Below are positions 7,389-15,035 of a stretch of 15,035 nt of DNA, one piece after another. Both the position numbers and the translations under genes were made by a program. Where the stretch lies: positions 1-15,035 of IMG/VR virus record IMGVR_UViG_2565956611_000003. The stretch is one strand, 5' to 3'. This DNA comes from a virus (Duplodnaviria > Heunggongvirae > Uroviricota > Caudoviricetes). The notes beneath the pieces were generated by a model that saw nothing but the letters and a program-made list of their open reading frames with translations, did not search any database and had not been told where the DNA came from. How positions within the stretch are numbered: the stretch's first letter is position 1; every line of letters begins with the position of its first letter.

Positions 7389-7895
7389 ATGAATTTAAGC
7401 GCAATGGTATATCCTGATACTTTCATAATTAATGGCGAATCATTCAGAGGTAAAAGAAACGCAAAAGAAAACAAGGTATTAATTCCATATACAAATGAAC
7501 CGGAAGTAACTATTGGTCAACACATTATCCAGCGTGTCGGTAAAAACGAGATAAATCTAAAAATTATAGATATGAAGTTGCTTCCCAATGGAACCCGCAG
7601 ACAGGGAACCAATCATCCAAATATGTTGACTCTCTATATTGAAAATATCACGGGAAATGAACATATGACGCCAACTAAAAGTAATACATTTAACATTGGT
7701 TCAATTAGTGGTGATCAAGTGCAGATAGGTGAGCATAACCATATGCTGGTAAACATCAGCATCACTGAACTGGTTGAAAAAGTCGCTAAATCGGGGGATG
7801 TACAAGCCAAATCAGTATTAAAGCAGTTACTGGAAAACAGTACCGTTGCCAGCATTGTTGGGGCTGGCGCAAGTGCCCTAATAGGCTTACTGTAA
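7389..7895 (+). CDS. Hypothetical protein (168 aa), AT-rich cargo gene with hydrophobic C-terminal segment
   Basis: ATG 7389 with AAGGA 7 nt upstream. Visibly AT-rich compared with flanking genes. The C-terminus (STVASIVGAGASALIGLL) is hydrophobic and Gly/Ala-rich. Stand-alone plus-strand gene followed by a strong terminator. No family recognised. Confidence 0.6.
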   Translation: MNLSAMVYPDTFIINGESFRGKRNAKENKVLIPYTNEPEVTIGQHIIQRVGKNEINLKIIDMKLLPNGTRRQGTNHPNMLTLYIENITGNEHMTPTKSNTFNIGSISGDQVQIGEHNHMLVNISITELVEKVAKSGDVQAKSVLKQLLENSTVASIVGAGASALIGLL

Positions 7896-11787: not shown

Positions 11788-11885
11788 AGCTGCCTCGATA
11801 CTCTCGTTATCGTTGGTGGTTAGACGCCCCGTATGTGTTTCCGGCACTGCGGGGCGTTGCTCTTTGTATTTCAACAATCCTTTCG

Positions 11886-11963
11886 GTGTGTTTCATGTTA
11901 TGAGCGCATGAAACACACGTCAAGGCTTTTTGTATTTCTTTTTTTGTGTATACTGAAACACAC
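11886..11963. promoter_or_regulatory. Divergent promoter/operator region with three TGAAACACAC sites
   Basis: Perfect 12-bp inverted repeat GTGTGTTTCATG (11886-11897) / CATGAAACACAC (11907-11918) overlaps a leftward TTGACG-17-TAACAT promoter (-35 at 11923-11918, -10 at 11900-11895, minus strand). A third TGAAACACAC (11954-11963) overlaps a rightward TATACT -10 (11949-11954) upstream of the 11985 gene. Confidence 0.5.
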
Positions 11964-11984
11964 CGATGATTAGGAGTTTCAGAA

Positions 11985-12635: not shown

Positions 12636-12860
12636 TTACGCTGCCTTACCTGAATTAACGCGGTCACGGCTTTGCACCCAGTCCATAACTTCGGAAAGCA
12701 ACCAGCCTACAGAACGCCCCCCAAGATTACGGCGAGACGGAAAGCCCCCTTTCTTCTCCAGTTCGTAGCGTGTAGTACGGCTGACGCCTGTTAACTTACG
12801 ACATTCATCCTCACGAATTACGCGATCTGTTAGTGATTGAAATTGTGTATTTTGATTCAT
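12636..12860 (-). CDS. alpA: AlpA-family prophage transcriptional regulator (small HTH excisionase-like activator)
   Basis: 74 aa (MNQNTQFQSLTDRVIREDECRKLTGVSRTTRYELEKKGGFPSRRNLGGRSVGWLLSEVMDWVQ...) matches the AlpA/CP4-57 regulator pattern. ATG at 12860 with GAGGG SD. Position near the integrase is typical. Confidence 0.85.
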   Translation of the reverse strand: MNQNTQFQSLTDRVIREDECRKLTGVSRTTRYELEKKGGFPSRRNLGGRSVGWLLSEVMDWVQSRDRVNSGKAA

Positions 12861-12892
12861 AAAAACACCCTCGAACGTAACCGAACAAGGGC

Positions 12893-12920
12893 ATCTTATT
12901 TACCATAGCAGTTGGTGCAA
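12893..12920 (-). promoter_or_regulatory. Candidate sigma70 promoter for alpA
   Basis: Minus-strand TTGCAC (12920-12915), 16-bp spacer, TAAGAT (12898-12893), about 30 nt upstream of the alpA ATG. Confidence 0.35.
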
Positions 12921-12963
12921 TATTGGAAAAATAAACTTTATTCTAATTTATCGTTCTCCATGA

Positions 12964-13818
12964 TTAATTTTCATTAGATAACATTTTTCTTATTTTTTCT
13001 AAAGAATCGCTGCGCATTATTTTTTCTAAGAAGGGTTTTACAGTCTGAGCAATAGCAAAGGTGTCCTTTTCACCATCAGGATACAAAGATACGGCAAGCA
13101 CCCCTAATGAAATTTTTCTATCTGTAGACAACTCCCAAGATAATAAGTCAATTAATGGGATTATCTTATAATCAATAATTTTACGTCGTATGCTCTCCCA
13201 ACTTCCTGCAATTGGTTTGTCTGGCTCAACAATTGAAAGTTCACTACGCCATTTTGGTAATAGTTTTGTAAACGCTTCAATCAACTCATCATCTCTGTTA
13301 TGTAGTAAGTCAACAGAAACAAGCATATTATCTAATGTATCAGAAAGGAGATTCACTGGTTCACGCATCACAGCCCAAAACATCCCATTATCTTCTGATA
13401 TTAAACTTCCAACCATCTCATTATCTATGATGATTGGTTTATCCTTCCAATATCCTCTTTCCGCAGTCAGTTTATTAATCATTGATATATCAAACCTTGT
13501 TACAGGTTTAATTCCATCATCATAACTTAGCTCAATTAACTTCGGTTGCACTTTATGGTCATATTCTTTTTGTTTATCACAAAACCAATCGTCTTCTTTC
13601 AGCTCTCCAAATGGATCCCCGTAATTATTATGCAACGGGTATTCAGCACCAAACATAAATCCATATTCAGGCATCTCAGAATGTTTCATCGTTAAATCAT
13701 CTTGTCGCCAATATAATTGGCGAAATAGATCTTTATCCGACAAGTTTTCTAGGCAATCATATTTGCCTAAATCAAATGACTTTGGTAAATCTTTTTTACT
13801 ATTTACTTTTTTCGTCAT
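12964..13818 (-). CDS. Hypothetical protein (284 aa), AT-rich cargo gene between integrase and alpA
   Basis: ATG at 13818 overlaps the integrase stop (ATGA) with GAGGG SD. Markedly AT-rich compared with int and alpA. Acidic, soluble-looking protein; no family or catalytic motif recognised. Confidence 0.7.
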   Translation of the reverse strand: MTKKVNSKKDLPKSFDLGKYDCLENLSDKDLFRQLYWRQDDLTMKHSEMPEYGFMFGAEYPLHNNYGDPFGELKEDDWFCDKQKEYDHKVQPKLIELSYDDGIKPVTRFDISMINKLTAERGYWKDKPIIIDNEMVGSLISEDNGMFWAVMREPVNLLSDTLDNMLVSVDLLHNRDDELIEAFTKLLPKWRSELSIVEPDKPIAGSWESIRRKIIDYKIIPLIDLLSWELSTDRKISLGVLAVSLYPDGEKDTFAIAQTVKPFLEKIMRSDSLEKIRKMLSNEN

Positions 13819-15035
13819 TGTATCCCTCTCAATATCACAATATTTTCATTATATCCTGCAATCATATCAAGACGCTCAACCCATAGATTCAGTGCGTCCC
13901 GTTTCGCCTGCAAATAGCGTGAATGGTTATAGGTTTTTTGCTGACCTGGCATCTGATGCGCTGTGATGTGCTCCACGATATGCGGATCGACACCTAAATC
14001 ATTCAGCATAGTTGTAAACGTGTGTCGGAAATCATGCAGCGTCCAGTGTTCCTGCTTAAGCCGCTTATGCGCATTTCGTCCATATTGCGCCACCGTGGTA
14101 TCTTTTTTCAGTTCGCCGAGTAATAACCCAGTGTGTGCGTTTTGCTCCACCAGCTTCTGAATGAACGGCAAAATACCATCAGGAATAGGTCGGAATATTG
14201 TTACCTTCGTTTTGCTGTGCTCTTTTGGCACTGTCCACAACATTTCTTTCAGATCCCATTCTTTGATCTCTGAAAGTCTGATCTCTGCCGTTCTGCACCC
14301 GAACACAATTAACAAGCGCATTAACGCACTGTAATAGGGAGCGAACACATCACCATCAATAGCGCGTAGAATTTCTTTTAGTTCGCTGTTGCTGTGCACT
14401 CTCTCGCGGATTTCTGCTCTCTTACCCACATCAGTAACGATCAAATCGTCCAGGGCGTTGCTAAACGCGTAGCGCCGCCTGCGGCAAAACTTTAGCGCCT
14501 GTTTGCATGTCTGCATGACATGGCCCGCTGCTACTGGTGCTTTTTTTCGTACGCGGTCAAAACATGCGATCCACTGCCTTGTATCACACTTATCAAGGGG
14601 AATTGCCCCAATATGGCAAATGATGTGCTTATCCATACGCTGCACCAGCTTTATGTAATCTTTGCGGTTATCCTTCGCGTATTCCTCCAGCCAGTAGTTA
14701 ATCGCTTCCTTCACCGTAACGGGTTTTAGTGCTTCCTGTACTGTGGCGCACAACTCATAACGGGGGTTTTTACCCTCAGCCAGCCATGCCCGGCACAGTG
14801 TGCGTTTTTCCCTTGCGGCTTTCAGCGACAATTCAGGGTAAGCCCCCAGCTTTAACCGCTCTGCGGCAACCTCACGGCCTCCCGTTCGGTACCGGAAATA
14901 CCAGGTTAATTTGCCGCCCTTTGAGTGTTTAATCTCCAGCCCGCCCCCGTCGGAGTAAAAACGCTCTTTTTCTGCCTGGACAGCCGCCAATTTTTTTAAC
15001 GTCGAATCGCTCAGTTTGTTTAGTGCTTTTCCCAC
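13815..15035 (-). CDS. int: Tyrosine integrase, P4 family (5' end at or just beyond the window edge)
   Basis: 406 aa read to the window edge. C-terminal catalytic region with LHDFRHTF (HxxR) and a downstream Tyr (KTYNHSRYL). The N-terminal region (LSDSTLKKL...LGAYPELSLKAAREKR) resembles P4-type integrase arm-binding domains. The first codon in the window is GTG. Confidence 0.9.
   Translation of the reverse strand: MGKALNKLSDSTLKKLAAVQAEKERFYSDGGGLEIKHSKGGKLTWYFRYRTGGREVAAERLKLGAYPELSLKAAREKRTLCRAWLAEGKNPRYELCATVQEALKPVTVKEAINYWLEEYAKDNRKDYIKLVQRMDKHIICHIGAIPLDKCDTRQWIACFDRVRKKAPVAAGHVMQTCKQALKFCRRRRYAFSNALDDLIVTDVGKRAEIRERVHSNSELKEILRAIDGDVFAPYYSALMRLLIVFGCRTAEIRLSEIKEWDLKEMLWTVPKEHSKTKVTIFRPIPDGILPFIQKLVEQNAHTGLLLGELKKDTTVAQYGRNAHKRLKQEHWTLHDFRHTFTTMLNDLGVDPHIVEHITAHQMPGQQKTYNHSRYLQAKRDALNLWVERLDMIAGYNENIVILRGIQ

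What the first reader, a model, noticed from the sequence alone, without database searches (positions are those of the whole stretch)
12964..13818. AT-rich 284-aa cargo gene fused to the integrase by start-stop overlap: candidate accessory or defence gene
This ORF is much more AT-rich than the flanking int and alpA genes, which suggests separate acquisition, yet its ATG overlaps the integrase stop codon (ATGA), so it is probably co-transcribed with int. It occupies the int-proximal slot where satellites and PICIs are reported to carry anti-phage or other accessory cargo. I recognise no family, no catalytic motif and no transmembrane segment, so it may be an uncharacterised single-gene system.
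Basis: partly seen in the sequence, partly recalled or inferred. Interest (0 to 1): 0.75.

Follow-up and report, generated by a model that had tools for sequence, protein, structure and literature searches.

The report
Uncharacterised DUF6387 gene paired with alpA
The AT-rich gene is real and belongs to an already catalogued protein family of unknown function (DUF6387) that sits directly in front of the island's master switch gene alpA in every mobile island examined, so it is more likely a swappable part of that switch than free-standing anti-phage cargo.

Summary
There is a 284-aa ORF on the minus strand at 12964-13818. It has 33.8% GC against 48.4% for int and alpA, its own ribosome-binding site, and an ATGA overlap with the int stop codon. 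The window is a capsid-forming PICI satellite.

The slot between int and alpA is variable. Islands with about 96% identical integrases carry this gene, a 36%-identical DUF6387 allele, an unrelated helix-turn-helix protein ("famB"), or nothing. That supports a cassette.

Family-wide, however, DUF6387 lay immediately upstream of an AlpA-type gene in all 23 lineages examined. [quoted passage not shown] It matches no known defence family, is almost absent from phage and plasmid records, and has no enzymatic motif or solved-structure match.

My best reading (about 0.4) is a non-enzymatic gatekeeper of the AlpA switch, made together with int. Defence cargo remains a live rival (about 0.25). Function is untested.

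The parts
12964..13818 (-). DUF6387-family ORF of 284 aa (the finding). Residues about 1-40 and about 160-280 are conserved; residues about 41-160 are hypervariable.
13815..13818 (-). ATGA start/stop overlap between the int stop (TGA) and the DUF6387 start (ATG).
   Evidence: The same 4-nt overlap is seen in homologous islands.
13824..13830 (-). Shine-Dalgarno GAGAGGG, 5 nt upstream of the DUF6387 ATG and inside the last int codons.
12891..13833 (.). Exchangeable cassette. It holds the last about 6 int codons, the SD, the DUF6387 ORF and about 73 nt of 3' spacer. Homology to islands carrying other cassettes stops at 13834 and resumes at 12890.
13815..15035 (-). P4-type tyrosine integrase, with its 5' end cut by the window edge. 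It is the upstream gene of the presumed int-DUF6387 transcript.
12861..12892 (-). Conserved GC-rich hairpin plus U-run immediately 5' of the alpA ATG. Its 3' arm contains the likely alpA SD (GAGG). It probably acts as a terminator or SD-sequestering insulator between the int-DUF6387 transcript and alpA.
12636..12860 (-). alpA (Phage_AlpA PF05930), the master activator/excision factor of Gram-negative PICIs and the invariant downstream partner of DUF6387.
13842..13870 (-). Weak sigma-70-like site (TTGATA-17-GAAAAT) inside the int 3' end. It may be an internal promoter but is not above chance.

Best explanation
The gene encodes a DUF6387 protein that works with the AlpA switch of the island rather than as independent cargo.

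Proposed mechanism. While the island sits in the chromosome, DUF6387 is made from the integrase transcript, as suggested by the ATGA overlap, its own SD and the absence of a terminator. That transcript is kept from expressing alpA by a conserved hairpin that hides the alpA ribosome-binding site and usually ends in a U-run. The protein is soluble, acidic, mostly helical and has no enzymatic signature. I propose that its conserved N- and C-terminal parts contact an invariant partner. That partner could be AlpA itself, the alpA leader or promoter, or the recombination complex. This contact would hold the excision/induction switch off or set its threshold. The hypervariable middle part would recognise a variable signal, such as a helper-phage or competing-element protein, that releases the block. 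This is functionally like the Stl repressors of staphylococcal islands or the exchangeable immunity cassettes of lambdoid phages.

Shown: family membership; invariant DUF6387->alpA adjacency; cassette exchange uncoupled from int; the conserved-variable-conserved layout; the insulating hairpin; and an alternative cassette encoding a DNA-binding protein with operator-like palindromes.

Inferred: co-transcription with int, any physical contact with AlpA or DNA, and the direction of the regulatory effect.
For: (1) In all 23 DUF6387 lineages examined (22-70% identity to the window protein where measured), an AlpA/HTH_17 gene follows on the same strand within about 40-200 nt. These come from Enterobacterales, Pasteurellaceae and Neptunomonas.
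(2) The integrase is not always adjacent. It is far away in Haemophilus and Avibacterium, and the order or orientation differs in the Serratia island (PMC9964261) and in pINF177.2. The linkage is therefore to alpA.
(3) The pair occurs in different element types: cf-PICIs with three different capsid and three different replication modules, and ROD21-like EARL islands. For those, the literature states that the excision factor gene 'is accompanied by an 843 bp gene of unknown function' in most islands (PMC6035254; PMC10763509 lists ICEKp258.2 ORF27 AlpA and ORF28 DUF6387).
(4) tblastn found it in only 2 of 50,697 phage records, neither a real phage genome, and 4 of 72,556 plasmid records, all island-like.
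(6) Both families share the layout of conserved ends and a hypervariable, recombining middle.
(7) The strong hairpin 5' of alpA is present in the 13 distinct filled-slot islands tested and is weak in empty-slot islands.
Against: The gene is dispensable. E. coli islands with 89-92% identical AlpA proteins carry famB or nothing in the slot, and prototypical PICIs function without it. No DNA-binding domain was confidently detected in DUF6387, and the protein is acidic (pI 5.0; family median 5.3). I found no convincing operator-like repeat in the DUF6387 cassette. Conserved adjacency could also arise if the site upstream of alpA were simply the one permissive cargo site. No experiment on any family member exists in the literature I could search.
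Confidence: 0.4

Rival explanations
1. It is single-gene anti-phage or anti-element defence (or superinfection exclusion) cargo in the int-proximal hot spot. It would be expressed constitutively with int. The variable middle would sense an invader and the conserved ends would deliver a non-enzymatic block.
For: The slot is replaceable among islands with about 96% identical integrases. The cassette has low GC. Alleles are shuffled independently of int (L042 int 96.5% with DUF 36%; L006 int 55% with DUF 70%). Tandem paralogues occur in two lineages. Expression with int would give production in the integrated state. PICIs are reported to carry immune genes at their 5' ends (PMC11364771, citing Fillol-Salom 2022). 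EcCIMP1 has an uncharacterised accessory gene in the same position and gives superinfection immunity through an unidentified factor (PMC11773190).
Against: There is no match to 5,027 PADLOC models for this protein or six homologues. No nuclease, NTPase, TIR, SIR2, pore or other effector signature was found, and no solved-structure match. The family was never seen away from alpA, in defence islands or in prophages, and is almost absent from phage and plasmid records. It is conserved in most EARL islands rather than sporadic (PMC6035254). In about 290 E. coli islands of this type the sampled slots held two protein families (four alleles counted by megablast) or nothing, not the wide assortment typical of defence hot spots.
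Confidence: 0.25
2. It is an island maintenance or stabilisation factor tied to excision. Examples would be an inhibitor of excisive recombination or a post-excision addiction function. It would act on the integrase/AlpA recombination complex rather than on alpA expression.
For: The family lies beside the excision factor gene in EARL islands, next to the attachment site (PMC10763509 section 7). In satellites it overlaps the int stop codon. AlpA-family proteins act as excision factors that bind att regions (PMC8844411).
Against: No toxin-like or antitoxin-like partner or motif was found. The position relative to att sites differs between satellites and EARL islands. Islands lacking the gene are common and stable in genomes.
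Confidence: 0.15
3. It is a passenger gene with no role in the island or host, retained by linkage.
For: Its function is unknown and it is dispensable in related islands.
Against: The intact frame is identical in 50 complete genomes. The family has 1,259 clusters at 50% identity, with strongly conserved N- and C-terminal blocks across bacterial orders. The AlphaFold model is confident (pLDDT 84.8).
Confidence: 0.05

Closest known systems
Pfam PF19924 / DUF6387 family. This includes the '843 bp gene of unknown function' next to the excision factor gene in ROD21-like (EARL) genomic islands, e.g. ICEKp258.2 ORF28 (KPNJ2_RS09320).
   Same: It gives a full-length HMM match. The size is the same, and so is the position directly upstream of an AlpA-family gene on the same strand. 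It sits in an integrative element with a P4-type integrase.
   Different: Here the element is a capsid-forming PICI satellite, not a mobilisable/conjugative EARL island. The gene overlaps the int stop codon instead of lying at the far end of the island next to the att site. Identity to EARL-type members is only about 22-35%. That ROD21's SEN1999 is the DUF6387 member is my inference, not a test.
Stl master repressors of staphylococcal pathogenicity islands (SaPIs).
   Same: By analogy only. Both are int-proximal genes expressed in the integrated state. Both are highly divergent between otherwise similar islands. Both have a conserved part plus a variable part that could set helper specificity. 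Both sit next to the gene that launches the island cycle.
   Different: No helix-turn-helix was detected in DUF6387. It is transcribed in the same direction as the gene it would control, not divergently. There is no sequence or fold similarity, and no evidence of DNA or inducer binding. It is optional.
Accessory or immune genes at the 5' end of PICIs (Fillol-Salom 2022, as cited in PMC11364771; EcCIMP1_002 in PMC11773190).
   Same: It occupies the same position between int and alpA, is variable among related islands, and has low GC.
   Different: No defence phenotype or homology is known. Unlike typical hot-spot cargo, the family is bound to alpA in every element type examined.
The 'famB' cassette protein (WP_000775337 / WP_044860658) of EcCIEDL933-type cf-PICIs.
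   Same: It occupies exactly the same slot with the same ATGA overlap on int. It has a similar length and the same layout of conserved ends with a hypervariable middle. The cassette junctions are the same.
   Different: It is an unrelated sequence (hhalign probability 0.2). famB has an excisionase/MerR-type winged helix, a beta-rich middle and flanking GTGATATCAC palindromes. DUF6387 is mainly helical and has no such repeats.

Membership tests
Pfam DUF6387 (PF19924) | Whole-protein HMM score above the curated gathering threshold, covering most of the model. | tested here: met
   108.8 bits against a cut-off of 28.9, E=4.6e-31, residues 3-272 on model positions 2-252 of 258. RefSeq names it a DUF6387 family protein.
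EARL-island 'excision-factor-associated conserved gene of unknown function' | An ORF of about 840-860 bp immediately adjacent to the AlpA-family excision factor gene. | tested here: met
   The ORF is 855 bp and lies 103 nt upstream of alpA on the same strand. This is the same arrangement as ICEKp258.2 ORF28/27 and loci L040 and L057.
EARL-island 'excision-factor-associated conserved gene of unknown function' | The host element is an EARL island: Asn-tRNA insertion, MOBQ relaxase/TraD, type IV pilus genes, H-NS homologue. | tested here: not met
   The element lies between thiM and rcnR. It carries primase, SSB, HK97 capsid, protease, portal, HNH, TerS and TerL, which makes it a cf-PICI.
Known anti-phage defence systems (PADLOC-DB v2) | Match to a model of a known or candidate defence protein. 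| tested here: not met
   0 families at E<=10 for the window protein and at E<=1 for six homologues.
Known anti-phage defence systems | Reduces phage plating when expressed. | not testable with these tools
   This needs cloning and plaque assays. No paper reports it.
PICI/cf-PICI 5'-end accessory (hot-spot) cargo | Lies between int and alpA and is present or absent, or replaced, among closely related islands. | tested here: met
   Islands with int 96% identical at the same rcnR site carry DUF6387-284, DUF6387-331, famB-264 or famB-257. cspD-site relatives carry famB or an empty spacer of about 410 bp.
PICI/cf-PICI 5'-end accessory (hot-spot) cargo | The gene family is independent of the island core, i.e. 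also found in other contexts or hot spots. | tested here: not met
   23 of 23 lineages lie directly upstream of an AlpA/HTH_17 gene. tblastn with the window protein matched only 2 phage records and 4 plasmid records.
SaPI Stl-like master repressor (functional analogy) | DNA-binding helix-turn-helix domain. | tested here: inconclusive
SaPI Stl-like master repressor (functional analogy) | Binds operators at the promoter of the island activator and is released by a helper-phage protein. | not testable with these tools
   No operator-like repeats were found in the DUF6387 cassette. Binding needs experiments.
Excisionase / recombination directionality factor | Small (about 60-100 aa) winged-helix protein of the Xis/AlpA/MerR-like type. 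| tested here: not met
   The protein is 284 aa with no HTH_17 or Phage_AlpA match. That role is filled by the adjacent alpA.

The most novel reading that the evidence does not exclude
DUF6387, and in parallel the unrelated famB protein, are interchangeable 'gatekeeper' cassettes that decide which signal (helper phage, competing element or stress) can switch on AlpA. They would supply the missing link in how Gram-negative phage satellites and ROD21-like islands are induced. The hypervariable middle domain would be the specificity determinant. The conserved hairpin that hides the alpA ribosome-binding site would be the controlled step.
Probability: 0.2. Interest if true: 0.8.

Novelty: new member of a known kind. 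Interest (0 to 1): 0.5.

Why it matters
How helper phages switch on alpA in Gram-negative PICIs is described as phage-activated without a stated mechanism in the PICI papers I read (bioRxiv 10.1101/2022.09.08.507074; PMC11773190). What controls excision of ROD21-like islands, including ICEKp258.2 of K. pneumoniae ST258, is described as mechanistically unknown for most islands (PMC10763509). DUF6387 is large (1,259 clusters at 50% identity) and lay directly upstream of alpA in both element types in everything I sampled. It also carries a hypervariable, recombining centre. This makes it a concrete and easily testable candidate for that control. If it proves instead to be a defence gene, it would be a new non-enzymatic one. 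In either case, the finding links two bodies of literature, on satellites and on EARL islands, that each noted an unexplained gene at this position.

Tried and rejected
- Sequence searches against solved structures, using profiles of 40 and 81 DUF6387 sequences, found nothing at E<=10.
- NCBIfam gave no match. PHROGs gave only an unknown-function family over the C-terminal part.
- hhalign between DUF6387 and famB showed no homology.
- Collection scans with the 81-sequence alignment failed because no stretch was conserved enough. The second word-seeded protein search added few distant members.
- The search for operator-like repeats in the DUF6387 cassette and upstream of int gave only chance-level matches.
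- The promoter scan found one weak site, fewer than in shuffles.
- Rfam found nothing in the window.
- The Fillol-Salom 2022 Cell paper is not in the held library, so I cite its claim about 5' and 3' hot spots second-hand.
- I could not check whether EcCIMP1_002 belongs to DUF6387 or famB.
- I considered and rejected excisionase, replication factor, membrane protein and PD-(D/E)xK nuclease. For the last, the 'PDGEK' stretch is not conserved across the family.

Full report
**What is there**

The window matches a capsid-forming phage-inducible chromosomal island (cf-PICI) of E. coli, at 100% identity over the 1,601-nt stretch searched, in strain SMS-3-5 and others. The island lies between thiM and rcnR. 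Its gene order is int, DUF6387, alpA, ylcI/icd, DUF4222, primase, SSB, an AT-rich 168-aa ORF, HK97 capsid, protease, portal, connector, HNH, TerS and TerL.

The ORF in question runs 12964..13818 on the minus strand and encodes 284 aa.
- Its ATG (13816-13818) overlaps the TGA of int (13815-13817).
- A GAGAGGG Shine-Dalgarno lies 5 nt upstream.
- GC is 0.338 (GC3 0.274), against 0.484 for both neighbours. This is the lowest-GC stretch of that length in the window.
- The frame is much longer than in 500 shuffles, which reached at most 156 codons. There is no transmembrane segment.

**Family**

The protein is a full-length member of Pfam DUF6387 (PF19924, 108.8 bits, E=4.6e-31), and RefSeq names it so (WP_000163378.1).
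- NCBIfam and PADLOC give nothing. PHROGs gives only an unknown-function family over residues 161-252.
- A profile search of 1.84 billion cluster representatives finds 1,259 clusters at E<=0.001. Among the 150 listed, almost all are stand-alone proteins of 250-330 aa.
- Conservation is concentrated in residues about 1-40 and about 160-280. Residues about 41-160 are hypervariable and rich in indels.
- The AlphaFold2 model is confident (pLDDT 84.8) and mainly helical.
- No catalytic motif is apparent. The protein is acidic (pI 5.0; family median 5.3).

**Is the slot variable?**

Yes. Homology between the window and related islands stops at 13834, inside the last six int codons, and resumes at 12890, 30 nt before the alpA ATG. 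The unit exchanged is therefore 12891-13833. The states seen are:

| Site | Occupant of the int-alpA slot | Calls |
|---|---|---|
| rcnR (integrases about 96% identical) | this gene (DUF6387, 284 aa) | window |
| rcnR | a 331-aa DUF6387 allele, only 36% identical (L042) | 78, 116 |
| rcnR | unrelated protein 'famB', 264 aa (L002) | 22 |
| rcnR | 'famB', 257 aa (L003) | 23 |
| cspD (int 66% identical) | the identical famB-257 (L004) | 24 |
| cspD | an empty spacer of about 410 nt (L005, L043-46) | 25, 79-82 |

Conversely, Enterobacter and Klebsiella islands whose int is only 55% identical carry a DUF6387 that is 70% identical. Cassette and integrase histories are therefore uncoupled.

Among 5,426 complete E. 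coli genomes, megablast finds DUF6387-284 in 50, DUF6387-331 in 3, famB-257 in 47-55 and famB-264 in 10-11. In total, 291 genomes match the query region, most of them only over alpA. All filled slots that I inspected keep the 4-nt overlap with the int stop. It also fits the published statement that PICIs carry immune genes at their 5' or 3' ends (PMC11364771 section 6) and the uncharacterised accessory gene between int and alpA in EcCIMP1 (PMC11773190).

**Family-wide picture**

This points elsewhere. In all 23 DUF6387 lineages examined, the next gene on the same strand is an AlpA-type gene, about 40-200 nt downstream. In Neptunomonas it is only a weak HTH_17 match. The lineages are:
- E. coli (two alleles);
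- Citrobacter/Enterobacter and Klebsiella (two lineages);
- Enterobacter soli, Providencia, Yersinia, Tenebrionibacter and Serratia;
- six metagenomic lineages (seven looked up; one contig ended before the downstream gene);
- a K. pneumoniae plasmid-borne island;
- two E. coli EARL-type islands;
- Haemophilus, Avibacterium and Neptunomonas;
- two islands described in the literature.

Supporting calls: 47, 48, 50, 53, 54, 60-63, 71-73, 78, 100, 103, 132, 134-136.

The integrase is usually directly upstream, but not always.
- In Haemophilus and Avibacterium it lies about 7 kb away on the other strand.
- In pINF177.2 it is divergent.
- In the EARL-type E. coli islands the gene is the first one after the att site.
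- In the Serratia HRI island the order is DUF6387-alpA-int (PMC9964261).

The downstream modules differ freely. Replication genes are D5 primase, AAA_25 helicase or DUF927. Capsid genes are HK97, lambda-E-like or a Clp-protease-capsid fusion.

The pair also occurs in elements that are not satellites. The literature on ROD21-like (EARL) excisable islands already states two things. [quoted passage not shown] In ICEKp258.2 these are ORF27 (AlpA) and ORF28 (DUF6387). No paper I could search assigns a function.

tblastn with the window protein matches 2 of 50,697 phage records, neither a true phage genome. It matches 4 of 72,556 plasmid records: an excised satellite, a mislabelled chromosome, and two large records (one a conjugative plasmid) carrying the island-type DUF6387-alpA module.

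**The slot-mate**

famB is informative.
- It is unrelated to DUF6387 (hhalign probability 0.2) but has the same layout: a conserved N-terminus, a hypervariable recombining middle and a conserved C-terminus.
- Two perfect 10-nt palindromes, GTGATATCAC, lie between its stop codon and alpA.
- Those palindromes are absent from DUF6387 cassettes, although the AlpA proteins are 89-92% identical.

The most economical reading is that famB binds there. The slot can thus hold a probable regulator of alpA, not only cargo.

**An insulating hairpin**

Immediately 5' of the alpA ATG (12861-12892, minus strand) is a GC-rich hairpin followed by a U-run. Its 3' arm contains the likely alpA Shine-Dalgarno (GAGG, 7 nt before the ATG).
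- The 121-nt region folds at -29.2 kcal/mol (z=-3.4).
- The hairpin is present, with different stem sequences and compensatory changes, in the 13 distinct filled-slot islands tested (-11.6 to -20 kcal/mol). It is weak (-3.7 to -5.4) in empty-slot islands.
- Rfam has no family for it.

It probably keeps transcription and translation of the int-cassette unit from leaking into alpA. This in turn implies that the cassette gene is expressed in the integrated state.

**Weighing the readings**

*For independent defence cargo:* replaceability, low GC, allele shuffling, tandem paralogues in two lineages, expression with int, and the published hot spot.

*Against independent defence cargo:*
- there is no similarity to any known defence protein;
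- there is no effector-like domain;
- the family is confined to the position in front of alpA in every element type;
- it is conserved in most EARL islands;
- the sampled slots held two protein families or nothing, rather than a broad assortment.

*For an AlpA-linked role:* the invariant gene pair across orders and element types, the regulator-like slot-mate with operators, the shared conserved-variable-conserved layout, and the insulating hairpin.

*Against an AlpA-linked role:* the gene is dispensable, no DNA-binding domain was detected, the protein is acidic, and no operators were found.

**Verdict**

I put about 0.4 on a non-enzymatic gatekeeper or modulator of the AlpA switch, about 0.25 on defence or exclusion cargo, about 0.15 on an excision-linked maintenance factor, and the rest on other or no function. 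The mechanistic steps beyond gene order and sequence features are inference.

As an object, the gene is ordinary. It is an annotated member of a catalogued family of unknown function and is identical in many genomes. Three points go beyond the annotation:
- the pairing with alpA holds across satellites and EARL islands;
- the gene behaves as a recombining specificity-like cassette, interchangeable with an HTH protein;
- a conserved hairpin insulates alpA from it.

These make the family a testable candidate for the control of AlpA in Gram-negative satellites, which the PICI papers I read describe as phage-activated without giving a mechanism. I score interest as moderate.

Noticed in passing
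window 12861-12892 (- strand); also L002, L003, L006-L010, L014, L022, L030, L041, L042: A conserved GC-rich hairpin plus U-run lies directly 5' of the alpA ATG, with the probable alpA Shine-Dalgarno in its 3' arm. Stems differ between islands with compensatory changes. The hairpin is strong in islands with a filled int-alpA slot and weak in empty-slot islands. There is no Rfam family for it. It may be the controlled step of alpA induction, by antitermination or SD release.
   Followed up: partly
L002 3326-3356, L003 3325-3355, L004 4324-4354: Two perfect 10-nt palindromes GTGATATCAC, 21 nt start-to-start, lie between the stop codon of the alternative cassette gene famB and alpA. famB has an excisionase/MerR-type winged helix at its N-terminus. 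Together they look like a repressor-operator pair in front of alpA in EcCIEDL933-type cf-PICIs.
   Followed up: partly
window 7389-7895 (+ strand): A second low-GC (0.379) ORF of 168 aa lies on the opposite strand between the SSB gene and the capsid module. It gives a full-length match to phrog_5789 (unknown function) and no Pfam or PADLOC match. It lies in the mid-island accessory region where Tai defence genes were reported in other PICIs.
   Followed up: partly
window about 11875-11970 (L001 15273-15367): Repeated and inverted copies of TGAAACACAC(CGA) lie in the divergent region between the icd-like operon and ylcI. They include a 13-nt perfect inverted pair and a 26-nt imperfect palindrome. 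They look like operator sites for an island regulator.
   Followed up: no
L041 = CP018459.1 (K. pneumoniae, 16,971-bp circular 'plasmid'): This record is deposited as a plasmid but looks like an excised, circular cf-PICI-like satellite. It carries int, DUF6387 (70.8% identical), alpA, a helicase, capsid and terminases. It also carries a gene annotated as a 1,135-aa tail tape measure protein, which is unexpected for an element said to lack tail genes.
   Followed up: no
L007 7980-9684 (Providencia) and L059 1619-3330 (metagenome): Two DUF6387 paralogues lie in tandem between int and alpA. In L059 they overlap by 4 nt.
   Followed up: no
L024 (Klebsiella, GCA_001011375.1): Two related satellites are integrated in tandem at one site. 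The first ends with an Abi_C-domain gene right before the int of the second.
   Followed up: no
A4/A5 alignment of famB proteins (P0211, P0213, P0218 against L003): Some famB alleles have C-terminal 70 residues identical to the EDL933-type allele but N-terminal and middle parts of another lineage. This shows recombination inside the gene.
   Followed up: no
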